Source: Patescibacteria group bacterium
GTDB taxonomy: Bacteria > Patescibacteriota > Minisyncoccia > UBA6257 > JAAZHW01
Direction: 5' to 3'
DNA: 64,000 nt
Assembly (NCBI GenBank): GCA_026415775.1
Contig: JAOAGL010000001.1
Coordinates: forward strand, 270,233 to 334,232
In this document: piece by piece, positions 316-18,386 of the stretch
Numbering within the stretch: the first letter of the stretch is position 1
How the letters are laid out: each line of letters starts with the position of its first letter
Position numbers and translations under genes: made by a program
Notes under the pieces: model-generated
Database searches by the model: none
Told to the model about the DNA's origin: nothing
Seen by the model: only the letters and a program-made list of their open reading frames with translations

Positions 316-1374
316 ATGAGAATTATTAGCGGTATACGACCAACAGGTGTTATTCATTTAGGCAATTATTTAGGAGCCATTCGTAATTGGTTGAATTTGC
401 AAAATAAAAAAACCAATCAGTGTCTGTTTTTTGTTGCCGATTACCATAGTTTTACGGATCCACCCGTTTCTCAAAAGGAAAAAACAGAAATGATTGAAAA
501 TATGATGATTGATTTTTTGGCCTTAGGGTTTAACCCCCAAAAATCTATTTTGTTTATTCAATCACAGGTAGAGGAGATTTTGGATATTGCCTGGTTAATT
601 AGTTGTTTAACGCCTATTGGTGAATTGGAGCGAATGACGCAATTTAAGGATAAAAGTCAAAAACAAGCTGGCAATGTTAATGCTGGTCTTTTTACTTATC
701 CTTGTTTAATGGCAGCTGATATTTTAACTTTCAAAGCTGAAGCTGTTCCTGTTGGCGAGGATCAATTGCAGCATTTGGAATTTACTCGCGAAAGCGCCCG
801 TCGATTTAATCGTTGTTTTGTTAAAACATTTCCTGAACCTAAAGCGCTTTTGACGGATGTGCCGCGTTTGATGAGTTTAAAGAATCCTTTGGAAAAAATG
901 TCAAAATCAGACCCAGATTCCTACATCTATGTTTTAGACGACCCCAAAATTATTAATCAACGAATTCGTTCGGCCACTTCTGCGACAAATGAATTTTTTG
1001 AAGGAATTCATTTATCCGCGAATGATTTTGTATTTGAGGTGAGGGCAAGTTACACTAATCATCCCGAAATTGAAAAGATGCAAGCCGCGATTAGAAATTT
1101 ATTATTAATGTATAAAGAATTTTGTCCAAAAGAATTTAAGAAGTTATTTAAAAATGAAAATGAAATCAATATTGAAAATTTGCGCTATGCGGAAATCAAA
1201 AACAATTTAGCTGAAGCCATTGTTGATTATTTTAGCTCGGCGCGCGCAAAAAAATCAGAATATCTTAAAAATAAAAAGAAGGTGATAAAAATTTTTGAAG
1301 AAGGGAGCAAGAAAGCGCGAGAAATAGCTCGGAAAACACTCAAAGAAGTCAAGCAGAAAATAGGTGTAATTTAA
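316..1374 (+). CDS. trpS: tryptophan--tRNA ligase
   Basis: Class I aaRS N-terminus 'GIRPTGVIHLGNYLGA' (HIGH-type motif) and a 'KMSKS' motif (..LEKMSKSDPDS..). 352 aa. Confidence 0.85.
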   Translation: MRIISGIRPTGVIHLGNYLGAIRNWLNLQNKKTNQCLFFVADYHSFTDPPVSQKEKTEMIENMMIDFLALGFNPQKSILFIQSQVEEILDIAWLISCLTPIGELERMTQFKDKSQKQAGNVNAGLFTYPCLMAADILTFKAEAVPVGEDQLQHLEFTRESARRFNRCFVKTFPEPKALLTDVPRLMSLKNPLEKMSKSDPDSYIYVLDDPKIINQRIRSATSATNEFFEGIHLSANDFVFEVRASYTNHPEIEKMQAAIRNLLLMYKEFCPKEFKKLFKNENEINIENLRYAEIKNNLAEAIVDYFSSARAKKSEYLKNKKKVIKIFEEGSKKAREIARKTLKEVKQKIGVI

Positions 1375-1457
1375 TTAATCTTGAAAAAAAACTTTGTTTC
1401 AGTAAGATAAAGCATAAGTTTAATAAGTAAAAAAGTCGTTTCGAAATCTAAATTATT

Positions 1458-1688
1458 ATGGGAGGCGTACCTACAAAACACACTACTCACGGCAAAGTTA
1501 GAAGAAGAAGATCTCATTTAAAACTTCAAGCTACTTCTTTAAAAGCATGCCCTAAATGCGGCGCTGCAATGATGCCGCATCGTTATTGTCCGAACTGCGG
1601 TTATTATAACAAAAAAGAAGTGGTTGATGTTTTAGCTAAGCTTTCGAAAAAAGAGAAAAGAAGTCGTGAAAAAGAGATAAAAAAATAA
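1458..1688 (+). CDS. rpmF: 50S ribosomal protein L32
   Basis: Short basic protein with a Cys4 ribbon (CPKCG...CPNCG) and the L32-like 'HRYCPNCGYY' segment. Confidence 0.8.
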   Translation: MGGVPTKHTTHGKVRRRRSHLKLQATSLKACPKCGAAMMPHRYCPNCGYYNKKEVVDVLAKLSKKEKRSREKEIKK

Positions 1689-1702
1689 TTTTTTAAATTA
1701 TT

Positions 1703-2191
1703 ATGGCCACGCGCCATTTCTGCCGCTCAATTCTTTTTCAGTCGCTTTACGAATGGGATTTTTATCGTACTAAAGAAAAAAAAGAAGTTGATTTAATGAA
1801 AATAATTGAGCGGAATATGCAGGATGCTTTGCCATTAATTGATGAGCCAGATTTTGTTTATCGTTTAGCCAAAAATTTAATAGATCACTTTGATGAGATT
1901 GATGATATGATTAGAAAGACAGCGCCAGCGTGGCCATTGGAACAGATTAATTTGACTGATAGAAATATCTTACGATTAGGAATTTCTGAATTAGTCTTTG
2001 GGCCAAAAGATGAAGTGCCGCCGAAGGTGGCTATTAATGAAGCAATTGAATTGGCTAAAACTTTTGGCAGTGAATCATCCAGCAAATTTATTAACGGAGT
2101 ATTGGGCACTATTTATCGTCAGATGATAGATGAAGGATTAATTAAAGAGCAAAAAACTGACAAACAGGTATCCCAAGAAGAACAAAAATAA
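1703..2191 (+). CDS. nusB: transcription antitermination factor NusB-like
   Basis: N-terminal '[13 protein letters not shown]' resembles the NusB signature (R..A.Q.LY). 162 aa all-helical protein, placed next to rnc. Confidence 0.6.
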
Positions 2192-2210
2192 AAAATAAAT
2201 TAAATTCAAA

Positions 2211-2939
2211 ATGGCTAAGGATAAATTTGAACAATTAGCAAAAACACTAAAGTTTAATTTCAAAAAAATTGATTTATTAAAACAGGCCTTCACCCATCGT
2301 TCTTATTTGAATGAAAATCATGAATGGCGTTTGGGTCATAATGAACGTTTGGAATTTTTGGGCGATGCGGTTTTGGAATTAGTAGTGAGTGAATATTTAT
2401 TTAAAAAATATCCAAATGAAAATGAAGGTTTTTTAACAAGTTTGAGAGCAAGTTTGGTTAATGCGGAAACTTTGGCGAGCGTGGCTGACAAATTAAATTT
2501 CGGACATTATGTTTTAGTTTCGCGAGGAGAGGCAAAAGATAATGGCGTTGGCCGTCGTTATATTTTAGCCAATACATTTGAAGCCTTAATTGGTGCTATT
2601 TATTTGGACGGCGGATATAAAAAATGTCAGCAATTTATAGAGAAGTTTTTGATTAAAGATAATTTGGAGAGAATTATTAAAGAAGGAAGTTATAAAGACC
2701 CAAAAAGTTTGCTACAAGAGAAGGCGCAGGCAGAGTTAGGAGTTACGCCTGCCTACAAAACTTTAGATGAGTGGGGTCCTGATCATGCCAAACATTTTCG
2801 TGTCGGTGTATTTTTTTATGATAAATTAGTTGATGAAGGAGAAGGACCTTCAAAACGCATAGCCGAACAAGAGGCTGCAAAAAAAGCTTTAAGTCGACAA
2901 GCATGGCAAGAATTTCAAGACAAAAAGAGGGGAAAGTAA
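2211..2939 (+). CDS. rnc: ribonuclease III
   Basis: RNase III catalytic signature 'ERLEFLGDAVLELVVSEYLF'. C-terminal dsRBD-like segment (..KDPKSLLQE..AKK..). Confidence 0.9.
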   Translation: MAKDKFEQLAKTLKFNFKKIDLLKQAFTHRSYLNENHEWRLGHNERLEFLGDAVLELVVSEYLFKKYPNENEGFLTSLRASLVNAETLASVADKLNFGHYVLVSRGEAKDNGVGRRYILANTFEALIGAIYLDGGYKKCQQFIEKFLIKDNLERIIKEGSYKDPKSLLQEKAQAELGVTPAYKTLDEWGPDHAKHFRVGVFFYDKLVDEGEGPSKRIAEQEAAKKALSRQAWQEFQDKKRGK

Positions 2940-2943
2940 GAAT

Positions 2944-5202
2944 ATGAAGCTTAAATCTTTGGAAATTTTAGGTTTTAAATCCTTCGCAAATAAAACAACC
3001 TTTTCTTTTCCCGCTAACTTTACAGCAATTGTTGGTCCAAATGGCAGCGGCAAATCCAACATTGTTGACGCTATTCGCTGGGTTTTGGGCGAAAGAGATT
3101 TAAAAAAAGTTAGAGTTGCGCATTCCGAAGAGGTAATTTTTAATGGCACGCCAAGCAAAGCCAAAATGTCATTGGCTCAAGTTTCTATTGTTTTGGATAA
3201 CAGCAATAATGAATTGCCTTTAGATTTTAAAGAAGTAGTTGTAACGCGTCGTTTGGAACGCGGTGGTGAGAACCAATATTTTATTAATGATTCACCAGTG
3301 CGGTTAAAAGATGTGGTAGAACTTTTAGCAAAAGCAAAGATAGGAAGCGAGGGTCTAACTATTATTAATCAAGGATTAACCGATGCTTTATTGCGCGCCT
3401 CACCGAAAGAGCGGAGAATTATGATTGAAGAAAATTTGGGATTGCGCGAACTTCAGTTAAAAAAGGAAGATGCAAAAAGGAAATTAGAAAATAGTCAGAT
3501 TAATTTGGATAAAACACAAGCATTATTAGAAGAACTTAAGCCTCACCTAAGATCTTTAAGGCGTCAGATTAATCGTTGGCAAAAAAGAGAAGAAATTTTA
3601 AAAATTTTATCTTTGTTGGAAAATGCTTATTATTCGGCTAGTTTCAAGGAGATATACTCATTAAAAAATTTATTGCAAGAAGAAAGAAAAAAAATAGAAG
3701 ATGAAAAAATAAGCGAAGAAACAAAACTGCGAGAATTAGAAAAAAATTTTGAAGAATTGGAGAAAAAGCGACCGGATTTTTCCCAACAATTTCAAAATCT
3801 AAGAAAACAAATTGATGAATTAGAACAGCAAAAAGGAATGTTATTAAAAAACCTTGGTCATTTAGAGGGTCAAATTGAAGGATTAAAACGATTTACTCCA
3901 GAAGTTAAAAACCAACCCAGCTTAAATCAATTAATTGATACTATTAAAAATATTAGAGAGGAATTAATAAATGTCCTAAATTTAGATGTGGAAAAAACAA
4001 AAATAATTATAAAAAAGATTATTGAACGCATCGATGAGATTTTCAAAGAGCCTCAATTAAATTCTAATAATGAAGAAATTCAAAAATTAGAAAATGAGAA
4101 AAATAAAATTAATCAGCAAATAGAAAATTTTAATCAAAAAATTTTAGAATATAATCAACAACTTGATGAGCTGCGTAAAAAAGATGAAGAGGTTGGTAAA
4201 GACTCCCACGGCGTTTTATTAGAAATTCAAAAACAGCGTTCATTAGTTCATCAATTGGAGCAGAAAATCAATGAAATATTTTTGAAAGAAGAGAAAAACA
4301 AACTAAAAGAAGCGGATTTGCTGATGAAACTTAAGGAAGCGGGGTTGAATAGCGAAGATTTTCAATGGGAGAAAATAAAAGATTTTGATGTTGAAAGAAT
4401 TTTCAAAGATAACAATATCTCTAATCTTGAAGATTTGGAAATGCGGATTATAAGAATGAGACGGGATTTAGCAACAATAGGCGAGATTGATGAGTTAACT
4501 TTGAAGGAAGCAAAAGAAACAGAAGAGCGTTATCAATTTTTATCGCAGCAATCTGAAGATTTAATCAAAGCCATTGCTGATTTAAAAACTATTATTGAGG
4601 AATTAACCGAGCGCATTGATAAACAATTTTCTGAATCACTAAAAATTATTAACGAGGAATTCAATAAGTATTTTCGTATGATGTTTGGTGGCGGCAGAGC
4701 AAAATTGGCCGTTACCAAAATTATTAAGAGACAGAGAAAAGAAAAAAACGACAATAATAATGGTGCAAATGAAGAACAACAGAAGGAAATTGCGGGAGAA
4801 GCCGTGGCCGTGACGGATGGCGAGAATAAAGAAGTTGAAGAAAAAGAGCCTGAATTTGAAATTGGTTTAGAAATTTTTGTTGATTTGCCAAAAAAGAAAA
4901 TAAAAAGTTTGGAAATGTTGTCTGGCGGAGAACGCAGTTTAGTTTCAATTAGTGTTTTGTTTGCTATCGTTTCGGCGATGCAGCCGCCATTTGTTGTTTT
5001 GGATGAGGTTGATGCGGCTTTGGACGAAATGAATGCGAGGCGCTTTGCTAAAATTTTAGGAGATTTAGTTGATACAACGCAATTTATTGTTGTTACTCAT
5101 AATCGCGCCACAATGGAAATGGCACAAATCCTTTATGGTATTTCAATGGCTGAAGAAGGAATTTCCAAGGCTGTTTCTCTTAAATTGGAAGAAGCGGAAT
5201 AA
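2944..5202 (+). CDS. smc: SMC-family chromosome segregation ATPase (short form, 752 aa)
   Basis: Walker A 'VGPNGSGKSN' at the N-terminus, a long coiled-coil/low-complexity middle, C-terminal ABC signature 'LSGGERSLVSISVLFAI' and Walker B 'FVVLDEVDAALD'. Confidence 0.75.
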   Translation: MKLKSLEILGFKSFANKTTFSFPANFTAIVGPNGSGKSNIVDAIRWVLGERDLKKVRVAHSEEVIFNGTPSKAKMSLAQVSIVLDNSNNELPLDFKEVVVTRRLERGGENQYFINDSPVRLKDVVELLAKAKIGSEGLTIINQGLTDALLRASPKERRIMIEENLGLRELQLKKEDAKRKLENSQINLDKTQALLEELKPHLRSLRRQINRWQKREEILKILSLLENAYYSASFKEIYSLKNLLQEERKKIEDEKISEETKLRELEKNFEELEKKRPDFSQQFQNLRKQIDELEQQKGMLLKNLGHLEGQIEGLKRFTPEVKNQPSLNQLIDTIKNIREELINVLNLDVEKTKIIIKKIIERIDEIFKEPQLNSNNEEIQKLENEKNKINQQIENFNQKILEYNQQLDELRKKDEEVGKDSHGVLLEIQKQRSLVHQLEQKINEIFLKEEKNKLKEADLLMKLKEAGLNSEDFQWEKIKDFDVERIFKDNNISNLEDLEMRIIRMRRDLATIGEIDELTLKEAKETEERYQFLSQQSEDLIKAIADLKTIIEELTERIDKQFSESLKIINEEFNKYFRMMFGGGRAKLAVTKIIKRQRKEKNDNNNGANEEQQKEIAGEAVAVTDGENKEVEEKEPEFEIGLEIFVDLPKKKIKSLEMLSGGERSLVSISVLFAIVSAMQPPFVVLDEVDAALDEMNARRFAKILGDLVDTTQFIVVTHNRATMEMAQILYGISMAEEGISKAVSLKLEEAE

Positions 5203-5256
5203 CCATTTTTATTTTTTTATTTATCAACTTTTACCAATACCAATTTAAAAAGATTA

Positions 5257-5296
5257 TTACTTAACAATCTTGACGATCGTCAAGATTGTTAAGTAA
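5257..5296. promoter_or_regulatory. 40-bp perfect palindrome TTACTTAACAATCTTGACGATCGTCAAGATTGTTAAGTAA, a candidate operator or hairpin
   Basis: Exact reverse-complement symmetry read directly from the sequence. Lies 110 bp upstream of the 5406 ORF. A second near-identical copy is at 6018-6051. Confidence 0.5.
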
Positions 5297-5405
5297 AATA
5301 TAAATTATAAATTAATAGTACAAATAAGCGTTTTAATAAATTAGAGCAATTTAAAATTAGAAAATAAAACGAGCGAAATAAAAATGAAATACAAAACAAA
5401 AGACA

Positions 5406-5987
5406 ATGCCAAGAGAAACAATTACTTTTAAAATTTTTGAAATTTTATCAGACGGAGCTAAAACGATGGATAATTTAATGTTTATCTTTTTTAACGGTTA
5501 TCGCCGTTCTTATAAACAAGCTCTAAAACAACGATGGCAGAAATATATAGAGTCAAAAAAGAAAGAGGATTTAAAAAAGATAAAGAACAATTTTTACGTA
5601 TTATTAAATAGATTAGAAAAACAAGGTTTTATTATAAAAAAGAAAGATAAAACGCAGAAAAAGAATTTATGGTTGCTTACCCCTGCTGGTAGAAAAAAGG
5701 CAAAAATGTTAATTGCTCAAACCAATTTTTTATTTGATTATCCTCATGAAAATGATGGAAAATTAAGGATTATTATTTTTGATATTCCAGAAAAAGAACG
5801 GTTTAAGCGCAATTGGTTAAGAGCAATACTTACTTATTTAGATTTTAAAATGCTTCAAAAAAGCGTGTGGATTGGTACTAATAAGATTCCTGAACGTTTT
5901 ATTTATGATTTGAAAAAATTTAACGTTTTGCCTTATGTTCATATTTTTGAAGTGAGCCAGAGCGGTACAATTGAAACAAAAAAATAA
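5406..5987 (+). CDS. putative transcriptional regulator with an N-terminal winged-helix-like region and a C-terminal Cas2/PaaX_C-like domain
   Basis: C-terminal 'LRIIIFDIPEKERFKRNWLRAILTYLDFKMLQKSVWI' fits the Cas2/VapD-like pattern (hhhhFD..R..L...L..F..LQ.SVW). The N-terminal segment (..FYVLLNRLEKQGFIIKKK..LWLLTPAGRKKAK) looks like a wHTH wing. Assignment is from motif recall only. Confidence 0.35.
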   Translation: MPRETITFKIFEILSDGAKTMDNLMFIFFNGYRRSYKQALKQRWQKYIESKKKEDLKKIKNNFYVLLNRLEKQGFIIKKKDKTQKKNLWLLTPAGRKKAKMLIAQTNFLFDYPHENDGKLRIIIFDIPEKERFKRNWLRAILTYLDFKMLQKSVWIGTNKIPERFIYDLKKFNVLPYVHIFEVSQSGTIETKK

Positions 5988-6017
5988 ATAAAATATTAAA
6001 TTTACTTTTTGATTTTG

Positions 6018-6051
6018 CTTAACTTTCTTGACGATCGTCAGAAAAGTTAAG
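6018..6051. promoter_or_regulatory. second copy (imperfect) of the palindrome, CTTAACTTTCTTGACGATCGTCAGAAAAGTTAAG
   Basis: Shares the core CTTGACGATCGTCA and the CTTAAC/GTTAAG arms with the 5257-5296 palindrome. Lies between the 5406 ORF and the rpsP promoter. Confidence 0.45.
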
Positions 6052-6136
6052 TGAGGTGAGATAGGGGAGAAATTAATATAATAAAATATAATAAAGGAGG
6101 AGTAAAAAAGGTAAATAAAAAAACAATAAATAATGT

Positions 6137-6164
6137 TTTGACTTTTGAGATTATTTGTTTATAA
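6137..6164 (+). promoter_or_regulatory. sigma70-type promoter TTGACT-N16-TATAAT upstream of rpsP
   Basis: Consensus -35 and -10 hexamers with a 16-nt spacer, about 50 nt upstream of the rpsP start. Confidence 0.5.
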
Positions 6165-6213
6165 TTAATTTTATTGAATTAACGATTGCGTCGCTTAATC
6201 TATTAGCCTTTTT

Positions 6214-6561
6214 ATGTTAGTTATAAGATTAAAACCGGTTGGAAAAAAACATCAAATTTCTTTCCGTATTGTTGTAGCTGAAAGACGTTCTAAATTAAAT
6301 GGGCGTTATAAAGAAGACCTCGGTTTTTATAATCCTTCAACTGATAAATTTTCAGTAAATAAAGAGCGCGCTAAGTATTGGTTATCAATTGGCGCTCAGC
6401 CATCAGAAACTGTTTATAATATTTTTGTAGCAGCGGGAGTTATCGAAGGACCCAAGAAGACAATTAAAATAAAAGAAGCAAAGAAAGAAGAGGGAGGTGC
6501 TGCAGTTGAAAACAAAACCAATAATGAAAATAATTCAACCAACGAAAGTAGTGCTCAATAA
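6214..6561 (+). CDS. rpsP: 30S ribosomal protein S16 with a low-complexity C-terminal extension
   Basis: N-terminus 'MLVIRLKPVGKKHQISFRIVVAERRSKLNGRYKEDLGFYNP' is typical of S16. About 30 aa of N/E/K-rich tail follow. Confidence 0.85.
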   Translation: MLVIRLKPVGKKHQISFRIVVAERRSKLNGRYKEDLGFYNPSTDKFSVNKERAKYWLSIGAQPSETVYNIFVAAGVIEGPKKTIKIKEAKKEEGGAAVENKTNNENNSTNESSAQ

Positions 6562-6589
6562 TTCAAATTGTCGTTAAAAATTTATTCTA

Positions 6590-7120
6590 ATGGAAAACAA
6601 AAAAATTTTATTCGTTGTTGCCTTCAAAGATTTTCGTGATGAGGAATTTTTTGAGCCGAAAGAAATTTTAGAGAAGGCGGGTTTTCAAATTGAAGTAGCG
6701 AGTACTGATAGAGGTGTGGCGCAGGGTGTTAATGGTGGTGAAGCAAAAGTGGATTTTTTAGACAACGAAGTTAATGTTGATGATTATGAAGCGGTGGTTT
6801 TTGTTGGCGGAGCGGGTGCGACGCGCAATATTGAGAATTCACGTTTTCATAAAATTGCGCGGGAGGCTTTTGAAAAAAATAAAATTGTGGCGGCAATTTG
6901 TATTGCGCCTTTAATTTTAGCGCGCGCTGGGATTTTGGAAAATAAAAAAGTAACCGTTTGGACGAGTGCTTTAGATAGAAGGCCGATTCAGGCGTTAAAA
7001 GATGGGGGAGCGAGTTATGAAAATAAATCAGTTGTAGTTGATGGGAATGTTATTACGGCAAATGGTCCGCAATCGGCTAAAGAATTCGGCAAGGCTATTT
7101 TGAAACAGTTAAAGAAATAA
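6590..7120 (+). CDS. DJ-1/PfpI family protein
   Basis: Class I glutamine-amidotransferase-like fold signature: 'KILFVVAFKDFRDEEFFEPKEIL', nucleophile elbow 'AAICIAPLILARAG'. Confidence 0.7.
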   Translation: MENKKILFVVAFKDFRDEEFFEPKEILEKAGFQIEVASTDRGVAQGVNGGEAKVDFLDNEVNVDDYEAVVFVGGAGATRNIENSRFHKIAREAFEKNKIVAAICIAPLILARAGILENKKVTVWTSALDRRPIQALKDGGASYENKSVVVDGNVITANGPQSAKEFGKAILKQLKK

Positions 7121-7142
7121 AAAAAGAAAAAGAAATTTTGAG

Positions 7143-7177
7143 GGCGGCGGCTGCTTTTTAGCAGCCGCCGCCTTTTT
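7143..7177 (+). terminator. rho-independent terminator (GGCGGCGGCTGC / loop TTTTTA / GCAGCCGCCGCC + TTTTT)
   Basis: Perfect 12-bp GC-rich stem followed by a T5 run immediately after the DJ-1 gene. GC island in AT-rich surroundings. Confidence 0.7.
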
Positions 7178-7262
7178 ACCCTTACAACCCAAAATAAATA
7201 CTTTAATTTCTAACTCATTTTCAGTTTATTTATCCACAACCCCTCCATTCTTGACAATTTTT

Positions 7263-7271
7263 GTGTTATAA
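7263..7271 (+). promoter_or_regulatory. extended -10 element TGTTATAAT upstream of the giant pilin-like gene
   Basis: TGnTATAAT. The same 9-mer recurs upstream of ruvB (18780-18788) and the dedA-like gene (56985-56993). The nearby TTGACA (7251-7256) is too close (10-nt spacer) to serve as a -35. Confidence 0.35.
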
Positions 7272-7324
7272 TATTTTTGAATGGGATTAAAACGCTTATT
7301 TTAAGCAATTATTTTAAAAATTTT

Positions 7325-10300
7325 ATGTCATTTTTTGATAAAAAAATTAGTTCCAAAGCATTCACCTTAATTGAAATTTTAATCTACACAGCAATTTTTG
7401 GCGTTGTGGCTGCTGGTATTATCGGTGTTGCGTGGAACATCACGCGTCTTCACACAACCCAAATTGCTTCTAATGAAATTGATGAAAATTTGCGTTATGT
7501 AATGAATTTAGTAAATTCTAAAGTTCGTGAGGCTTCACTGATTGTACAGGCAAGTGGAACGACTTTAATTTTGCGGATGCCCGATTCACTAAAAAGTCCT
7601 ACAACATTTTCTTTAAACAATGGCACTTTATACATTCAAGAAGGAAGCGCTGATCCTGTAGCAATTACTTCCAATCGTGTTGAGGTTACTTCTTTGAATT
7701 TTGAATATATAAGCGTTGCTGGTAGTAAGGGTGGCGTGCGAGTTAATATTGCGATGGCATACAAAGAGCAGCCAGGTATTGCTTCGCGTGAATACATCAC
7801 AACAGTTACTAAGGTTAATGCCATCGTTTTTGATTCAGACATTATACCAGATGTAACTAATTCAAGAAGTGTTGGTATTAATACGGCGCAATGGAAGGAT
7901 GGTTATTTTTCTAGAAATGTAATAGTTGGCGGCGATGTTTCATCAACCGGTTTTATTATCGGTGGAGCTGGTCTTTGTATGGGAACTGATTGTCGTACTT
8001 CTTGGGGTCAGGTTACAGGCGTTACTGGTTCCGGCACACAAAATTATATTGCTAAATGGACCTCTTCTGGCTCTATTGGTAATTCGCAAATTTTTGATAA
8101 TGGGACTAATGTGGGTATTGGGACGACAAGTCCCAATGTAAAATTACATATTTCGAATACTACGGCAGGAATAAACGAACTATTGCGTTTAGCTTATAAC
8201 AATTCAGTGGGTTCAGGAGCGAGATTATCATGGTGGGCAGGAGATACCGTGTCAGAAACGGGGCGGATAGAAAACTTTGTAGATGCAGGAAATCAAGTGA
8301 GTTTAAGATTTTATACTTATAATTCTGGACTCGGTGAAAGAATGCGCATTACAGCTGCTGGTAATGTTGGTATCGGCACAGCATCTCCTCCTTCTCTTCT
8401 TTCCGTCGGCGCATCATCGCAATTTCAAGTTAATTCTTCTGGTGATATAGTTAAAATCAAAAACCTTACTTATTCCTGGCCATCCTCTCATGCTGTCGGA
8501 TTTCTTAAAAACGACGGCTCGGGTAATTTAACTTGGGATACTTCTGGCGCAGTTGGCGGCACAGGTTCAGCTGGCCAAGTGGCTTTTTGGTCCTCAACAA
8601 CAACGATAACAGGCGATAGCGGTTTTTATTGGGATAATACTAACAAAAGATTAGGTTTAGGCACAACTGCACCTGGTCAACGTTTATCTGTTGTTGGCGA
8701 TATTGGTTTATCTGGTGGCGATCGTTTTATTGGCACAACCGACGCCTATGGTTTAAGCATCAGAACAAACAATACCAATAGAATTTTCATTTCCGCTGAT
8801 GGTAATGTCGGTATTGGTACTACTTCGCCAAGCAGAACATTAGATGTTCATGGTATTGCGCAATTACGCGGCGCTGCCGGCGGCACTGGTTTATTTGTTG
8901 ATTCTGGTGGTAATGTGGGTATTGGGACGACAAGTCCAGCATTTAAACTTGATGTTAGTGGATCAGCTCGAGTTACCAATGTATTTAAAGAAGGCAATTG
9001 GCGTCACGTACTTTCTTCTTATGTTACTGCTACCCCTACTAATGGTGTTTTGTTAACTACCGCCATTCCTTATGATGGTGTTACAAATAGAGGAATGCAT
9101 GGTATTCGGGTGATGGGATATGCCTTTGGAGAGTCTAGACCTATAGATTTTGAAGTGGTATTTTATCTTTATACTTCTGGTTTTAATAGCTACGGCTGGA
9201 CAAATTATGGAGCTCATGACCCAGGAACAATTAAACTTTCTTATGAAGGTAATGTTGTTAAATTATGGTGGTCTTCTAAAGTTTATTATGCTAGTTATGA
9301 AATATTTACAAAAAGTCATGGAGCACTTGGCCAAAACGATTCATGGTTTGAGGGGTGGACCATCACTGATGCAGTAGCTCCTACTTCAAATGTTGTAGAT
9401 GTTCCATATCGAAATGCAATGCCTTATGGACTTGCAATGCGCGGCAATATTAATTTAAATGGAAATTGGCTTTCTGGAGACGGAGATAATGAGGGTGTTT
9501 ATATAAATGCTTCAGGTAATGTTGGTATTGGAGCAACAAGTCCATCATATCGATTAGATGTAGCTGGTGATATTAATACATCAGGTTATTTTAGAGGTAA
9601 TGGTTCCCAAATAACTAATTTAAATGCTTCTAATTTAACAAGTGGTATTGTGCCTGCAGCACGACTTTCATCTACGCAAGCTTATTATACTTTAGATCCG
9701 ATTTTTCCAAAAACAAATCAGCAACATACAACTTTAGGAGGAGCGACAATTGGTGAAATTGCTTTGTCGTCTGCTTATGTTCAAAATAAATTGCAATTTG
9801 TTTTACCTTATAGTATTGAATATACAACCAATGGAACAACCTGGAATACTTATCCTGATCCAGTTGATAGTGATACAGTTAAAAAAATGTTTTTGGGTTA
9901 TAACGCCGGGGGTAAAATTTATCTCCGTGGTCCCAATAATGGAAATTGGCTTGGTTTGCGCATAACATGGCAGGCACCTTCGTATTATTTCTTGAATTAT
10001 TTCTATACTTACATGAGTACTTCAGGACATCAATGTGCAATTACAATAGAAAAGACATATGGAGATGATTTGAATACATGGATTACTGTTGCTACAACGA
10101 CTAATTTTTCTAGTTGGCCTGGGCATACTCTTGTTCCTCATTCGAATATTGCGTGGAATCCGACACCTACTCCAGGTACTCATTCTAAATATGTACGAGT
10201 GACTTTTACTCCCACATGGAATGGATCTTATCCTAATAATAATATTGATATTTATGCAATAGATTGGTTTGGAGAATATCCAGCTAATATCAAACCCATG

Positions 10301-13300
10301 CAATTATTTACTTGGGATTTTGATAAAAATGTTACATTTGATAATGGATTAAGAATGCCTGGTAGTATTGGTATTGGGACAACAAATCCTATTCAAAAAT
10401 TACACGTCGAAGGAAATGCTTATATTTCAGGAAGTGTCGGCATTGGCACGACAAATCCAAATACTTTACTCGATGTAAGGGGAAGAATTAACACGCCAGA
10501 AATAGCTTTTCGTAATAGTGACGGAGGTGATGATAGTGACCCTTATCGTTTAAGAAAATATCAATTTGGTTCAAGCTCTAATGAACTTCAGCTTCAGTTA
10601 AATGATGATAGTGATGAAAGATTTGCTATTTATGGTAATTCTTGTAGTGGTTATAGTTGTGGTGAATATAGTGGTAATCTTTATCATTTCTTTAAAGCAG
10701 ATGGAACGGCTTATCATGCTGGCAACGTCGGTATCGGCACAACAAGTCCCTCATATAAATTAGACGTCTCAGGAGATATTCGTGCTACAGGAACTATTTA
10801 TGGAACATTCTCTGGTACAATCAATGCTGCTAATGTTTCAGCCGGTTCATTTGGTGCTAACACTGGTGGTGGCAATTATTCCTTCCCAGCGAATCTGACT
10901 GTTAGTGGAGCTGTTGGTATTGGGACGACGAATCCGGGGGTGAAATTAGATGTAGTAGGGGGATATATTAGAACTTGGGGTGGAGAGTTTATATCATATA
11001 AAGAGAATCCTGGAGGAATTTTGGGGGCTTTAGCTTTGGAAGGAAAAAATGCTTCCTCAACCAATCCTTATATGAAAAGATGGACTTTGTTTAATATGCA
11101 AGATTATTCTGGTGTGAATGGTTTTGTCATCTATGAATATTATGATGCAAATAATGATGGTAGTTATTGTAATGATGGCGGAGCATGTAATATGAGATTT
11201 ATTATTGCAAGTGGGGGTAATGTTGGTATCGGAACTGCCACTCCTGCTTATCCATTAGATGTAGTAGGTGATGTTAGATTCTCAGGCACTCTTCAAGGTG
11301 GTTCAGTGCCATGGGCTCGTTTAACTTCTTTCCCATCAGCTTGTTCTGCTGGCAATGCAGTAACTGGATTAGGCTCAACTCTTACTTGTTCGCCATTTAT
11401 GACTAATCCAATGACTACATTGGGTGATATCATCTACGGCGGTTCCAGTGGCACACCAACCCGTTTAGCTGGCTCAGCTGGTTTTCTTAAATCAACTGGC
11501 GCTGCTGCGCCTTCTTGGAGCGCTGTTAATCTTGCTTCCTCTGATGTAACAGGCACTTTAGCAGTAACTAGTGGCGGTACAGGTTTATCTTCTATTGCGG
11601 CTGGCTCTATTCTTTATGCTACTTCTTCTAATACTTTAATTGCCATTGCTCCAACTGCCGCTAATCAGGTTTTAAGGTCAACCGCTGCTAATGCCTTGCA
11701 ATTTGGCGCATTAGTTGCTGCTGATATTCCTAATTTAGACGCTAGTAAAATTACTTCAGGAACTTTTGGTATTGCTCGTGGCGGTACTAACTCAACTGCT
11801 ACTCCCACTGCTGGCGCTGTAGCTTATGGTACTGGTTCAGCTTATGCTTTTACTGCTGCTGGTACAGCTAACCAAGTTTTAATTTCAGGCGGCACCAGCA
11901 CTCCCACCTGGTCTAACATCGCTTCATTACTCACTCAAGGCACTAACATCACTATTTCTGGCACCACCAATGCCACTATTGCCACGGTTAACAACCCAAC
12001 TTTCTCTACTTCTGTTTCAACACCATTATTAACCAGCTCAGGCGCTATTGCTATTAAACCCGGTTCTAATTCAACCACCGCTATTCAATTACAAAATACC
12101 GGTGGTACAGCCATTGTTAATGTTGATACAACGAATAGTAGAGTAGGTATTAATAATGCAAGTCCCAGCTATGCTTTAGATATTACAGGCGATATCCGCG
12201 TTACTGGTGCCATCATTGGTACAGTTTCAACAACAATTTCGGCAACCAATGTTTCAGCCGGCGCTTTTGGTTCTAACACTGGTGGCGGCAATTATTCTTT
12301 CCCAGCCAGAGTAGGAATAGGCACAACGTCACCAAGTACAGATTTGCATATAAAAGTTTCAAGCGGTGATGTGAAAATACAACTGGGTACTCAAGCAAGT
12401 GTTGTGCCAACTACTGGAGGACCAAATAATCCTTCGGCAGCGGTCGATGATTCAAGCAATGGAGGTTCGGCTGTTTGGAGTAATCCAACCAATGTTTATA
12501 CCTCTAATGACGTTTATGCGTCAGTTACAATACCAGCAGGTGTGGATCCAGATTATTATTGGAGCGATTATTTGAAAGCGACGGGTTTTGGATTTTCTCT
12601 TCCTAGCACCGCTAATATTCTTGGGATTAAGGTAGAAATAGAGGCAAAGGCGAGCGTTGCTTCGACATTAACAATAAATGAAGTATTATTAGTTAAATCA
12701 GGTTCAATTGTTGGTAGCAGCAAAAGCGGAGGACTTCTAACTGCATCAGATGCGTACTACTCATTTGGTGATACAACTGATTTGTGGGGAACAACTTGGT
12801 CTTACTCAGATATTAACAATTCCAATTTTGGCGTGGTTGTGAGTGTATTTAATCCTACAACATCAGCAAGAACGGCTTATATAGACCACATTAGAATAAC
12901 CGTTTATTATACCAGCAGTGGAGATGCAGATTGGCAGATGGCAGTATCTTCAACAAGCGGCGCTTTCATTATAAATCCTTTATTTAGTGGTGGAAGAGTG
13001 GGCATTGGAACTACAACGCCATCGGCAACTTTAGATATAAATGGGACTCTTAATGTAAATGGAATTATTCAAGGAAAGTTTTATGATAAATATACTGGCA
13101 GCATTTCCCGCACTTATTCTAGTGGAAATGGAACTTCAAGCTTGAGCACGGGCAAATATTATCCTGATTGGTTCTGTGCCCTATCTAAAGTTGATGCTAC
13201 AGAGTTAGATACTGCTACCGAACATGCTTATTGCACGGTTACTCTCGACGGTAATAATCAGTGGCTTTTAAATGCTGTAATTAGCGGCGTCTCGGATCAA

Positions 13301-13336
13301 ACGGTTTCTTGTAGTATTTATTGCATACGATTATAA
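7325..13336 (+). CDS. giant (~2000 aa) prepilin-leader surface protein with tail-fibre-like 'GNVGIGTTSPxxKLDVxG' repeats
   Basis: Best start is the ATG at 7325 (MSFFDKKISSKA|FTLIEILIYTAIFGVVAAG), a class III/prepilin-type leader. The ORF track's 7277 start is a TTG. The remainder is G/S/T/N-rich with at least 11 repeat copies, two ~50-aa paralogous segments and a Cys-containing C-terminal domain. Confidence 0.6.
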   Translation: MSFFDKKISSKAFTLIEILIYTAIFGVVAAGIIGVAWNITRLHTTQIASNEIDENLRYVMNLVNSKVREASLIVQASGTTLILRMPDSLKSPTTFSLNNGTLYIQEGSADPVAITSNRVEVTSLNFEYISVAGSKGGVRVNIAMAYKEQPGIASREYITTVTKVNAIVFDSDIIPDVTNSRSVGINTAQWKDGYFSRNVIVGGDVSSTGFIIGGAGLCMGTDCRTSWGQVTGVTGSGTQNYIAKWTSSGSIGNSQIFDNGTNVGIGTTSPNVKLHISNTTAGINELLRLAYNNSVGSGARLSWWAGDTVSETGRIENFVDAGNQVSLRFYTYNSGLGERMRITAAGNVGIGTASPPSLLSVGASSQFQVNSSGDIVKIKNLTYSWPSSHAVGFLKNDGSGNLTWDTSGAVGGTGSAGQVAFWSSTTTITGDSGFYWDNTNKRLGLGTTAPGQRLSVVGDIGLSGGDRFIGTTDAYGLSIRTNNTNRIFISADGNVGIGTTSPSRTLDVHGIAQLRGAAGGTGLFVDSGGNVGIGTTSPAFKLDVSGSARVTNVFKEGNWRHVLSSYVTATPTNGVLLTTAIPYDGVTNRGMHGIRVMGYAFGESRPIDFEVVFYLYTSGFNSYGWTNYGAHDPGTIKLSYEGNVVKLWWSSKVYYASYEIFTKSHGALGQNDSWFEGWTITDAVAPTSNVVDVPYRNAMPYGLAMRGNINLNGNWLSGDGDNEGVYINASGNVGIGATSPSYRLDVAGDINTSGYFRGNGSQITNLNASNLTSGIVPAARLSSTQAYYTLDPIFPKTNQQHTTLGGATIGEIALSSAYVQNKLQFVLPYSIEYTTNGTTWNTYPDPVDSDTVKKMFLGYNAGGKIYLRGPNNGNWLGLRITWQAPSYYFLNYFYTYMSTSGHQCAITIEKTYGDDLNTWITVATTTNFSSWPGHTLVPHSNIAWNPTPTPGTHSKYVRVTFTPTWNGSYPNNNIDIYAIDWFGEYPANIKPMQLFTWDFDKNVTFDNGLRMPGSIGIGTTNPIQKLHVEGNAYISGSVGIGTTNPNTLLDVRGRINTPEIAFRNSDGGDDSDPYRLRKYQFGSSSNELQLQLNDDSDERFAIYGNSCSGYSCGEYSGNLYHFFKADGTAYHAGNVGIGTTSPSYKLDVSGDIRATGTIYGTFSGTINAANVSAGSFGANTGGGNYSFPANLTVSGAVGIGTTNPGVKLDVVGGYIRTWGGEFISYKENPGGILGALALEGKNASSTNPYMKRWTLFNMQDYSGVNGFVIYEYYDANNDGSYCNDGGACNMRFIIASGGNVGIGTATPAYPLDVVGDVRFSGTLQGGSVPWARLTSFPSACSAGNAVTGLGSTLTCSPFMTNPMTTLGDIIYGGSSGTPTRLAGSAGFLKSTGAAAPSWSAVNLASSDVTGTLAVTSGGTGLSSIAAGSILYATSSNTLIAIAPTAANQVLRSTAANALQFGALVAADIPNLDASKITSGTFGIARGGTNSTATPTAGAVAYGTGSAYAFTAAGTANQVLISGGTSTPTWSNIASLLTQGTNITISGTTNATIATVNNPTFSTSVSTPLLTSSGAIAIKPGSNSTTAIQLQNTGGTAIVNVDTTNSRVGINNASPSYALDITGDIRVTGAIIGTVSTTISATNVSAGAFGSNTGGGNYSFPARVGIGTTSPSTDLHIKVSSGDVKIQLGTQASVVPTTGGPNNPSAAVDDSSNGGSAVWSNPTNVYTSNDVYASVTIPAGVDPDYYWSDYLKATGFGFSLPSTANILGIKVEIEAKASVASTLTINEVLLVKSGSIVGSSKSGGLLTASDAYYSFGDTTDLWGTTWSYSDINNSNFGVVVSVFNPTTSARTAYIDHIRITVYYTSSGDADWQMAVSSTSGAFIINPLFSGGRVGIGTTTPSATLDINGTLNVNGIIQGKFYDKYTGSISRTYSSGNGTSSLSTGKYYPDWFCALSKVDATELDTATEHAYCTVTLDGNNQWLLNAVISGVSDQTVSCSIYCIRL

Positions 13337-18320: not shown

Positions 18321-18332
18321 TTTTTGAAAATT

Positions 18333-18360
18333 AAATCCGCCTCAATAATGAGGCGGATTT
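18333..18360 (+). terminator. hairpin terminator (AAATCCGCCTCA / loop ATAA / TGAGGCGGATTT)
   Basis: Perfect 12-bp stem directly after the PilB stop. A weak T-rich tail follows. Confidence 0.55.
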
Positions 18361-18386
18361 AATTTAGATAAAATTATAAAAAAATA

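What the first reader, a model, noticed from the sequence alone, without database searches (positions are those of the whole stretch)
5257..6051. wHTH/Cas2-fold regulator-like gene bracketed by a 40-bp perfect palindrome and a near-identical second copy
TTACTTAACAATCTTGACGATCGTCAAGATTGTTAAGTAA (5257-5296) is a perfect 40-bp palindrome. CTTAACTTTCTTGACGATCGTCAGAAAAGTTAAG (6018-6051) repeats its core and arms about 760 bp away. The two sites bracket a single 193-aa ORF between smc and rpsP. The C-terminus of that ORF fits the Cas2/VapD-like beta-alpha pattern (LRIIIFDIPEKERFKRNWLRAILTYLDFKMLQKSVWI), and the region before it looks like a winged helix. Two identical long operators flanking a small DNA-binding protein suggest an autoregulated switch, a paired-site (looping) repressor, or a small inserted cassette between two conserved housekeeping genes. 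A Cas2-fold protein with no cas1 or CRISPR array nearby is noteworthy in itself.
Basis: partly seen in the sequence, partly recalled or inferred. Interest (0 to 1): 0.6.

Follow-up and report, generated by a model that had tools for sequence, protein, structure and literature searches.

The report
Accessory repressor cassette with paired palindromes
A small DNA-binding protein gene (winged helix plus Cas2-like domain) sits between two copies of its own ~40-bp palindromic site as a 927-bp accessory cassette that close relatives lack, and the same gene-between-two-private-palindromes layout recurs across a large, undescribed family in Patescibacteria (CPR).

Summary
Window 5257-5296 is a perfect 40-bp palindrome. 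6015-6052 is an imperfect second copy (82% identical). They flank a 193-aa ORF between smc and rpsP.

The protein has a PadR/MarR-like winged helix plus the Cas2-like PaaX_M domain (Pfam 9.6e-16; AF2 pLDDT 87; best PDB fold hit is PaaX). It lacks the PaaX C-terminal effector domain.

In 81 loci encoding homologues, 65 have an upstream site and 68 a downstream site. Each site is a quasi-palindrome with a near-invariant CGATCG centre. The 5-bp boxes 9-13 bp out differ from locus to locus but are shared by the two copies of one locus. Ten related loci without the gene have no such site.

Upstream sites overlap the gene's promoter. Downstream sites are neither promoters nor terminators, and nothing suggests an RNA hairpin.

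A relative with 96-100% identical flanks (L201), and more distant ones, have smc and rpsP 93 bp apart. So the 927-bp unit is an accessory insertion.

Best reading: a minimal PaaX-like autorepressor with two private operators, carried on a flexible, self-contained cassette. Binding itself, the role of the downstream site and any nuclease or mobility function are untested. No prior description was found.

The parts
5203..6129 (.). 927-bp accessory cassette, absent from close relatives. It holds a 54-bp AT-rich leader, site U, the promoter and 5' region, gene X, site D and a 77-bp trailer.
   Evidence: blastn: window 1290-5202 matches L201 1-3907 at 96.2%, and window 6130-8149 matches L201 3917-5937 at 91.3%. 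L201 has 9 bp (AAATTACGC) in place of the 927 bp. L202, L203 and L206 are also empty.
5257..5296 (.). Site U: perfect 40-bp palindrome. Centre CGATCG 5274-5279. Boxes TTAAC 5261-5265 and GTTAA 5288-5292.
   Evidence: Box and centre positions follow from the family-wide symmetry and U-versus-D identity profiles.
5270..5299 (+). Promoter-like element of gene X inside site U: TTGACG, 18-nt spacer, TAAAAT.
   Evidence: 10 of 12 matches; second-best match in 5100-6300. Family-wide, 29% of upstream sites have a -10-like box (at least 5 of 6) at the edge facing the gene, against 2% background.
5406..5987 (+). Gene X, 193 aa. Residues about 1-108 form a PadR/MarR-like winged helix plus linker helix. 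Residues 114-192 form the Cas2-like PaaX_M domain, which includes the conserved FDIPE...R..WLR...QKSVW.G motif.
   Evidence: An identical protein is in NCBI, named 'MAG: helix-turn-helix transcriptional regulator [Patescibacteria group bacterium]' (P0001).
6015..6052 (.). Site D: imperfect copy of site U. Centre CGATCG 6032-6037. Boxes TTAAC 6019-6023 and GTTAA 6046-6050. It starts 28 bp after the stop codon.
   Evidence: There is no promoter match and no T tract.
6138..6165 (+). rpsP promoter (TTGACT, 16-nt spacer, TATAAT). It lies just outside the cassette and is conserved in the empty-site relatives. Context, not part of the cassette.
   Evidence: 11 of 12. The same sequence follows smc directly in L201 and L202.

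Best explanation
Gene X encodes a minimal PaaX-like DNA-binding protein. It has an N-terminal winged helix and a Cas2-like domain that (inferred, by analogy with PaaX and Cas2) makes it a dimer. It has no effector-binding C-terminal domain.

Inferred mechanism: the dimer binds a tripartite site of about 40 bp, laid out as 5-bp box, about 8 bp, CGATCG, about 8 bp, inverted box. The variable winged helices would read the locus-specific boxes. The conserved Cas2-like dimer would sit over the conserved centre.

Site U covers the -35 to -10 region of X's own promoter, so X would repress itself. Site D, about 45 bp after the stop codon, would be a second operator. It could cooperate with U by looping the roughly 750-bp gene, or act as a roadblock that insulates the unit from its neighbours.

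The whole unit is a self-contained accessory cassette. It lies in a stretch that differs between two otherwise near-identical genomes, and it belongs to a large Patescibacteria-only family in which each paralogue has its own box sequence.

Shown: the fold, the sites, their family-wide linkage to the gene, their anatomy, the promoter overlap and the presence/absence polymorphism. Inferred: binding, dimerisation, repression and the role of site D.
For: Protein:
- PaaX_M scores 9.6e-16. The AF2 model has pLDDT 86.8. The best fold hit is PaaX 8a39, followed by PadR/MarR and Cas2.

The sites are a family trait:
- 93 of 137 long palindromes in 630 kb lie within 400 bp of the gene. Their centres are ACGATCGT-like without that being required by the scan.
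- With relaxed criteria, 65 of 81 loci have an upstream site, 68 of 81 a downstream site and 60 both.
- A 31%-identical member also has both sites.
- There are 0 sites in 10 loci without X.

Specificity is private to each locus:
- The U and D copies of one locus share arms; different loci, including paralogues in one genome, do not.
- Arm similarity tracks identity of the winged-helix half (partial r 0.17), not of the Cas2-like half (0.00).

The anatomy fits a protein-binding site:
- Symmetry and U-versus-D identity peak at positions 9-13 from the centre (0.92-0.98), dip at positions 2-4 and fall to background beyond 18.

Promoter:
- Window TTGACG-18-TAAAAT at 5270-5299.
- -10-like boxes are enriched only at upstream sites on the side facing the gene (29% against 2%).

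Precedent:
- E. coli PaaX binds TGATTC(N27)GAATCA and represses its own promoter Px (PMC9493321).

Accessory status:
-.
Against: - No binding, dimerisation or expression data exist.
- A repressor whose only visible targets flank its own gene has no obvious use to the cell. No further site was found in the 64-kb window.
- Many sites are perfect palindromes over 36-64 bp. That is more symmetry than a protein needs, which hints at cruciform or hairpin formation, or at template-switch homogenisation.
- The CGATCG centre is conserved across paralogues for a reason that is not established.
- The Cas2-type Asp after strand 1 (D126) is at least 90% conserved, which leaves room for catalysis.
- Box spacing (22 bp between boxes) is similar in kind to PaaX's N27 but not equal to it.
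- About 40% of downstream neighbours are convergent, so site D is not a neighbour's operator, and its role is a guess.
Confidence: 0.6

Rival explanations
1. The unit is a selfish mobile cassette. The palindromes are its recombination or cleavage sites, and X's Cas2-like domain is the nuclease or recombination factor. It would nick or cut at the invariant CGATCG centre, so that the segment between the two sites can be excised, inverted or copied.
For: - The cassette is present in the window and absent in genomes with 96-100% identical flanks and next to 89-92% identical Xer genes.
- At conserved sites, X lineages differ (36-48% identity) while flanking proteins are 56-83% identical.
- X alone is inverted relative to its neighbours (L043 against L050; the trxB context).
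- The centre is invariant across paralogues.
- The Cas2-type Asp126 and Glu129 are conserved.
- An 18-nt inverted repeat lies at the exact ends of the 927-bp insert (p about 0.002-0.02).
- Solo sites exist (L177; L001 at 2811).
Against: - The empty site holds no palindrome copy and shows no target duplication.
- The insert extends 54 and 77 bp beyond the palindromes.
- The outer inverted repeat is not a family feature.
- Same-genome paralogues are only 33-59% identical.
- Identical proteins always sit in the same context.
- No relatives were found in viral contigs, phages or plasmids.
- No known transposase or recombinase motif is present, and there is no invariant His or Tyr.
- The cassette lies in a mosaic tract, which is better explained by homologous recombination.
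Confidence: 0.13
2. The palindromes act as nucleic-acid hairpins or cruciforms: transcription terminators or insulators, or mRNA-stabilising stem-loops. X would not bind them, and they would merely insulate the inserted gene.
For: - The stems are long and often perfect.
- The placement is symmetric, about 48 bp before the start codon and about 45 bp after the stop codon.
- Changes, including indels, are mirrored in both arms between related loci.
Against: - Mismatches show no G.T bias over A.C on either strand. They cluster next to the centre while positions 9-13 stay symmetric.
- Many sites are only quasi-palindromic.
- No T tract follows downstream sites (0%).
- The stems are AT-rich.
- Upstream sites lie at or before the predicted transcription start.
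- The class is confined to this gene family and its boxes are paralogue-specific.
- Rfam finds nothing.
Confidence: 0.1
3. X is an ordinary local regulator of the neighbouring housekeeping operon (here rpsP, the DJ-1 family gene and the pilin-like gene), and site D is that operon's operator.
For: - Site D lies 86 bp upstream of the rpsP -35 element.
- Some loci have a third site that brackets an extra gene (L014, L034).
Against: - Relatives run the same operon from the same promoter without X.
- Neighbours differ among loci, and about 40% of downstream neighbours are convergent.
- Downstream sites show no promoter signal.
Confidence: 0.07

Closest known systems
PaaX, repressor of phenylacetate catabolism (E. 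coli W, PDB 8a39; Jannaschia 3l09; TIGR02277)
   Same: - Domain order: winged helix followed by the Cas2-like PaaX_M domain.
- A long operator made of two short inverted boxes more than two helical turns apart (TGATTC-N27-GAATCA).
- Repression of its own promoter (PMC9493321).
   Different: - X has no C-terminal effector domain (193 aa against about 305).
- It scores 28 bits against the 264.55-bit TIGR02277 cut-off.
- No paa genes are nearby.
- X has two sites that flank its gene, a conserved CGATCG centre, and several paralogues per genome with private boxes.
- It is restricted to Patescibacteria and is an accessory cassette.
Cas2 (CRISPR adaptation protein) and VapD-type toxins
   Same: - The ferredoxin-like beta-alpha-beta-beta-alpha-beta fold.
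- The FD(I/M)P...R...L...Q.SV(W/Y/F) motif, with the Asp after strand 1.
- Some homologues are annotated as Cas2.
   Different: - The Cas2 models score below their thresholds (20.7 against 23.8 bits; 21.8 against 24.5 bits).
- The domain is fused to a winged helix.
- There is no CRISPR array in 64 kb, and the neighbours are smc and rpsP.
PadR/MarR-family autorepressors with palindromic operators
   Same: - The winged-helix fold (Foldseek 5zhc, TM-score 0.68 on the target).
- An operator overlapping the regulator's own promoter.
   Different: - The Pfam PadR score is below threshold (22.9 against 27 bits).
- Dimerisation would go through a Cas2-like domain, not a C-terminal helix.
- The site is about twice as long, and there is a second site after the gene.
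Genes bracketed by palindromic sites in mobile contexts (REP/RAYT units, IS200/IS605 subterminal hairpins, pdif modules, integron attC cassettes). Comparison from my own knowledge.
   Same: - A single small gene bracketed by two related palindromic sites.
- Presence/absence between close relatives.
- Occasional inversion.
   Different: - No HUH/Tyr, DDE or tyrosine/serine recombinase domain is present.
- The sites are not dispersed in the genome.
- There are no identical copies in new contexts.
- The empty site lacks a site copy.

Membership tests
PaaX (TIGR02277 equivalog) | Full-length match above the curated cut-off | tested here: not met
   28 bits against a cut-off of 264.55.
PaaX (TIGR02277 equivalog) | Central Cas2-like PaaX_M domain | tested here: met
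   PF20803 scores 58.1 bits against 24, residues 114-192. The Foldseek top hit is 8a39.
PaaX (TIGR02277 equivalog) | C-terminal helical effector (phenylacetyl-CoA) domain | tested here: not met
   The protein ends at residue 193, right after PaaX_M. No PaaX_C hit. Family members are 185-214 aa.
PaaX (TIGR02277 equivalog) | Linked to paa catabolic genes | tested here: not met
   The neighbours here are smc and rpsP. In other loci they are various housekeeping genes.
PaaX-like mode of action | Binds two distal inverted boxes and represses its own promoter | tested here: inconclusive
   Site anatomy and promoter overlap fit, but no binding or expression data exist.
Cas2 (CRISPR-associated) | Cas2 profile above threshold | tested here: not met
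   PF09827 scores 20.7 against 23.8 bits. TIGR01573 scores 21.8 against 24.5 bits.
Cas2 (CRISPR-associated) | Ferredoxin-like fold with a conserved Asp after strand 1 | tested here: met
   AF2 strands and helices over residues 116-192. D126 is at least 90% conserved. Cas2 chains 5zyf and 8ia4 are among the fold hits.
Cas2 (CRISPR-associated) | Next to cas1 and a CRISPR array | tested here: not met
   No spaced direct repeats in 64 kb. The adjacent genes are smc and rpsP. cas1 was not searched for by profile across the whole window.
Transposable element (IS-like, including hairpin-ended IS200/IS605 types) | Recognisable transposase or recombinase catalytic domain | tested here: not met
   Pfam, NCBIfam, PADLOC and PHROGs give only HTH, PaaX_M and Cas2 hits. 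There is no invariant His or Tyr.
Transposable element (IS-like, including hairpin-ended IS200/IS605 types) | Near-identical copies in different contexts; target duplication | tested here: not met
   Paralogues are 33-59% identical. Identical proteins always sit in one context. No duplication is seen at the junctions.
Transposable element (IS-like, including hairpin-ended IS200/IS605 types) | Presence/absence between close relatives | tested here: met
Generic REP-like repeat | Many copies at unrelated intergenic loci | tested here: not met
   2 copies in 64 kb. 0 sites in 61 kb of loci without X. Only about 6-8 'far' sites in 630 kb.
Intrinsic terminator | GC-rich stem followed by a T tract | tested here: not met
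   The stems are AT-rich. 0% of downstream sites and 2% of upstream sites are followed by at least 6 T in 8 bases.

The most novel reading that the evidence does not exclude
The wHTH-Cas2-like proteins and their paired palindromes form a previously unrecognised class of autonomous genetic elements in CPR bacteria. In this reading, the Cas2-like domain acts catalytically on the invariant CGATCG centre of its own flanking sites by nicking or cleaving. That drives excision, inversion or copying of the cassette, or kills cells that lose it. It would be a free-living relative of Cas2 with a sequence-specific DNA substrate.
Probability: 0.12. Interest if true: 0.9.

Novelty: new variant of a known kind. 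Interest (0 to 1): 0.62.

Why it matters
CPR/Patescibacteria genomes are tiny, and almost nothing is known about how they regulate genes. This work defines a large family (at least 856 clusters at 50% identity). For each member the likely cognate DNA site can be read directly from the genome, so there are hundreds of natural protein-site pairs with private specificity. That makes the DNA recognition code of a PaaX/PadR-type winged helix directly testable. It also offers orthogonal repressor-operator parts.

The work also shows that the Cas2-like fold exists in a sequence-specific DNA-binding context on accessory cassettes. This bears on where Cas2 and PaaX came from. The cassette's presence/absence between near-identical genomes gives a rare view of gene flux in CPR populations.

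Tried and rejected
- Metagenome pattern scan. The 16-base pattern was too loose and returned random hits. Only L177 carries a true palindromic site, and it has no X gene nearby. The scan therefore could not show whether the source genome has further copies.
- First related-loci run with 45 sequences failed because there was no conserved stretch. It worked with 12 sequences.
- PDB sequence searches found only weak winged-helix matches. PaaX and Cas2 are seen by fold only.
- Viral contigs, phage records and plasmid records hold no relatives.
- RNA-hairpin reading rejected: no wobble bias and no Rfam family.
- Terminator reading rejected: no T tracts.
- Bidirectional-promoter reading rejected: -10-like boxes are found only on the gene-facing side of upstream sites. 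The -35 hexamer was mis-registered by 1 nt in that script, which does not affect the -10 result.
- Direct versus inverted orientation of the U and D copies: 30 against 16, with small margins. Inconclusive.
- Terminal inverted repeats outside the palindromes: present in the window but not general.
- Active transposition: not supported.
- CGATCG avoidance in the genome (a restriction-site idea): not seen, 8 observed against 4.9 expected.
- Literature searches found no description of this family or arrangement.

Full report
**1. The observation**

Window 5257-5296 is a perfect 40-bp palindrome, TTACTTAACAATCTTGACGA|TCGTCAAGATTGTTAAGTAA. A second copy lies at 6015-6052. It is 82% identical over 38 nt and is only an imperfect palindrome.

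The 16-nt core and the 20-nt half-site, each with up to 3 mismatches, occur nowhere else in the 64-kb window (expected 0.07 and 0.01). The two sites flank one ORF, 5406-5987 (193 aa), between smc (2944-5202) and rpsP (6214-6561). No CRISPR-like repeats are in the window.

**2. The protein**

- Pfam finds PaaX_M, described as the 'PaaX protein central Cas2-like domain', at residues 114-192 (9.6e-16; 58 bits against a cut-off of 24).
- PadR, HTH_34 and CRISPR_Cas2 hits are below threshold.
- NCBIfam PaaX and Cas2 models score far below or just below their cut-offs.
- An AlphaFold2 model built on 45 homologues has mean pLDDT 86.8. It shows a winged helix (helices 3-72, wing 76-91), a linker helix (93-107) and a beta-alpha-beta-beta-alpha-beta domain (116-192).
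- Foldseek against the PDB ranks E. coli PaaX (8a39) first. PadR and MarR regulators follow, and Cas2 chains (5zyf, 8ia4) match the C-terminal domain.
- The protein stops right after PaaX_M, so it lacks PaaX's C-terminal effector domain.
- The most conserved stretch is FDIPEKER.KR.WLR..L..L.F.MLQKSVW.G. I127, P128, E129, R135, W137, S153 and W155 are invariant, and D126 is at least 90% conserved. From my own knowledge, this Asp after strand 1 corresponds to the catalytic Asp of Cas2.

**3. The family**

Homologues are all about 185-214 aa and come from Patescibacteria/Parcubacteria-type MAGs. An exhaustive profile search finds 856 clusters (at 50% identity) with E up to 1e-30, and 2680 with E up to 1e-10.

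Several genomes hold 2-4 paralogues that are 33-59% identical. No relatives turned up in viral contigs, phage records or plasmid records. The N-terminal half is much more variable than the Cas2-like half (mean identity 29% against 50%).

**4. The palindromes are a family trait**

I scanned 80 homologous loci plus the window.

- A centre-agnostic scan for long palindromes found 137 in 630 kb. Of these, 93 lie within 400 bp of the family gene, and about 7 more were scored as 'inside' only because the stop-to-stop ORF overshoots the real start. Their centres are ACGATCGT 48 times; most of the rest are close variants such as GCGATCGC, ACGGCCGT and ACGACCGT.
- With relaxed criteria, 65 of 81 loci have an upstream site (U), 68 have a downstream site (D), 60 have both and 8 have neither. 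Some of those 8 are truncated or have a different centre.
- Even a 31%-identical member (P0080, Ryanbacteria) has both sites.
- Ten related loci that lack the gene (61 kb) have none.
- The U centre lies a median 48 bp before the start codon. The D centre lies a median 45.5 bp after the stop codon.

**5. Anatomy of the site**

The arms differ from locus to locus, also between paralogues of one genome. The U and D copies of one locus share them.

Two position-by-position measures peak at positions 9-13 from the central hexamer: symmetry within a site, and identity between U and D (0.92-0.98). Both are lower at positions 2-4 (0.65-0.74) and reach background beyond position 18. The site is therefore tripartite: 5-bp box, about 8 bp, CGATCG, about 8 bp, inverted box.

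In the window the boxes are TTAAC and GTTAA. This is exactly the part that the two copies share.

- Many sites are only quasi-palindromic.
- Mismatches show no G.T-over-A.C bias on either strand.
- No T tract follows the sites.
- Rfam has nothing.

These points argue against an RNA hairpin or an intrinsic terminator, and for recognition of duplex DNA by a symmetric protein. Because the boxes are private to each paralogue, the only locus-specific candidate to read them is X itself. Arm similarity correlates weakly with identity of the winged-helix half (partial r 0.17) and not with the Cas2-like half (0.00).

**6. Relation to transcription**

In the window, TTGACG-18-TAAAAT (5270-5299) lies inside site U. 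It is the second-best sigma-70-type match in the region. The best is the rpsP promoter at 6138-6165.

Across the family, -10-like hexamers (at least 5 of 6) sit at the gene-facing edge of 29% of U sites. The figure is 2% for background and 2-7% for the other side of U and for D sites. So U overlaps X's own promoter and D is not a promoter.

About 40% of downstream neighbours are convergent, so D cannot in general be a neighbour's operator.

**7. The cassette is accessory**

RpsP homologues led to close relatives.

- L201 has the gene order trpS, rpmF, nusB, rnc, smc, rpsP, DJ-1 family gene and a pilin-like gene. Its smc stop and rpsP start are 93 bp apart.
- Window 1290-5202 matches L201 at 96.2% and window 6130-8149 at 91.3%. 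Window 5203-6129 (927 bp) replaces 9 bp of L201.
- L202 and L203 (about 84% identical) and L206 are also empty; the L202 spacer was read and is homologous to that of L201. By parsimony the empty state is ancestral.
- Identity between the window and L201 is 100% over 1290-2790 and then drops to 85-97% through smc and beyond. The cassette therefore lies in a mosaic tract, most simply a homologous-recombination import from a diverged strain that already carried it.
- The empty site has no palindrome copy and shows no target duplication.
- An 18-nt AT-rich inverted repeat sits at the exact ends of the insert (p about 0.002-0.02), but similar repeats are not a family feature.

Evidence from other loci:

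- Genomes whose Xer recombinase is 89-92% identical to that of L030 lack X next to xer.
- At the conserved trxB and xer contexts, X lineages are only 36-48% identical while flanking proteins are 56-83% identical. X alone can also be inverted.
- Identical X proteins are always in the same context.

So turnover is real, but nothing points to active transposition.

**8. Interpretation**

The closest known system is PaaX. It has a winged helix, a Cas2-like domain and an effector domain. It binds TGATTC(N27)GAATCA and represses its own promoter (PMC9493321).

X looks like a minimal, effector-less PaaX-type repressor. It has two private operators that flank its gene, and the unit is a self-contained accessory cassette.

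X is not a PaaX orthologue: the score is far below the cut-off, there is no C-terminal domain and there are no paa genes. It is not a CRISPR Cas2 either: the scores are below threshold, the domain is fused to a winged helix, and there is no array. The membership table lists each feature.

Still unexplained:

- why the CGATCG centre is invariant;
- why many sites are perfect over 40-64 bp;
- what the downstream site does;
- what benefit, or selfish advantage, a repressor has whose only visible targets are its own flanks.

A catalytic or mobility role of the Cas2-like domain at the centre remains possible (about 0.12).

**9. Novelty**

The protein is already annotated in databases as an HTH regulator, a PaaX_M protein or 'Cas2'. 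Six literature searches found no description of four things: the paired-site architecture, its tripartite anatomy, the private specificity of paralogues, or the cassette's presence/absence polymorphism.

I rate it a new variant of a known kind (PaaX/PadR-type autoregulators), with interest 0.62.

Noticed in passing
L207 3400-3880 (smc-rpsP spacer of a relative, 605 bp): About five copies of a repeat unit, GTCATTCTGAGCG...GAAGAATCCCA, with internal hairpins fill the spacer where the window has the X cassette. The same spacer is therefore a hotspot for different insertions.
   Followed up: no
L207 3829-3872; L006 3392-3431; L020 3106-3139; L068 7024-7061 and 7084-7113: A second, unrelated palindrome class (AACATTCTCACATTCT-CAAG-AGAATGTGAGAATGTT and variants) recurs in several Patescibacteria loci. 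It may be the operator of another regulator.
   Followed up: no
L071 41-66, 150-181, 187-232: Three palindromes containing TGTTTCACGTGAAACA, which from my own knowledge is the canonical parS sequence, cluster about 3.8 kb upstream of the family gene.
   Followed up: no
L014 3799-4251 (-) and L034 4709-5212 (-): In two loci a third copy of the locus-specific palindrome (L014 centre at 4480, L034 centre at 5352) brackets an extra gene. It encodes a 150-167-aa protein with a LexA-type or HTH_11 N-terminal domain and an unassigned C-terminal half. This may be cargo or a partner in an enlarged cassette.
   Followed up: partly
window 1290-8149 compared with L201: Identity is mosaic. It is 100% over trpS to rnc (1290-2790), then 85-97% through smc, rpsP and the pilin-like gene. 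This looks like a recombination tract between strains.
   Followed up: partly
window 5206-5223 and 6112-6129: An 18-nt AT-rich inverted repeat (16 of 18 matches) lies at the very ends of the 927-bp insert. It is unlikely by chance (p about 0.002-0.02), but other family loci show nothing similar.
   Followed up: yes
L177, site centred near 6451: A solo site resembling the window's (TACTTAACATTTCTGACGATCGTCAAATTTGTTAACTA) lies between a thioredoxin-like gene and a glycosyltransferase gene. No family gene is in the stretch held. It may be the footprint of a lost cassette or a target acted on in trans.
   Followed up: partly
L003, L004, L011, L058 compared with L008, L009, L013, L031, L045; L043 compared with L050: Within conserved contexts (trxB...c3-c4; the 3' end of xer) the family gene is found in both orientations. 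This is what recombination between its flanking palindromes would produce.
   Followed up: partly
window 7277-13336: A 2019-aa ORF with an N-terminal type IV pilin-like segment. Its counterparts in close relatives are much shorter or diverge quickly (815 aa in L204; a 1220-aa product in L201 that runs past the end of the locus held; identity falls to 82% by 7880).
   Followed up: no
window 18328-18365: A 38-bp near-perfect palindrome, AAATTAAATCCGCCTCAATAATGAGGCGGATTTAATTT, with a GC-rich inner stem. It looks like a terminator and does not belong to the CGATCG class.
   Followed up: no
L209 3390-3470: A tRNA-like sequence lies directly after xer at the position where L030 carries the family gene. 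Its identity was judged by eye and not checked with a tRNA finder. The region downstream of xer is a variable spot.
   Followed up: no
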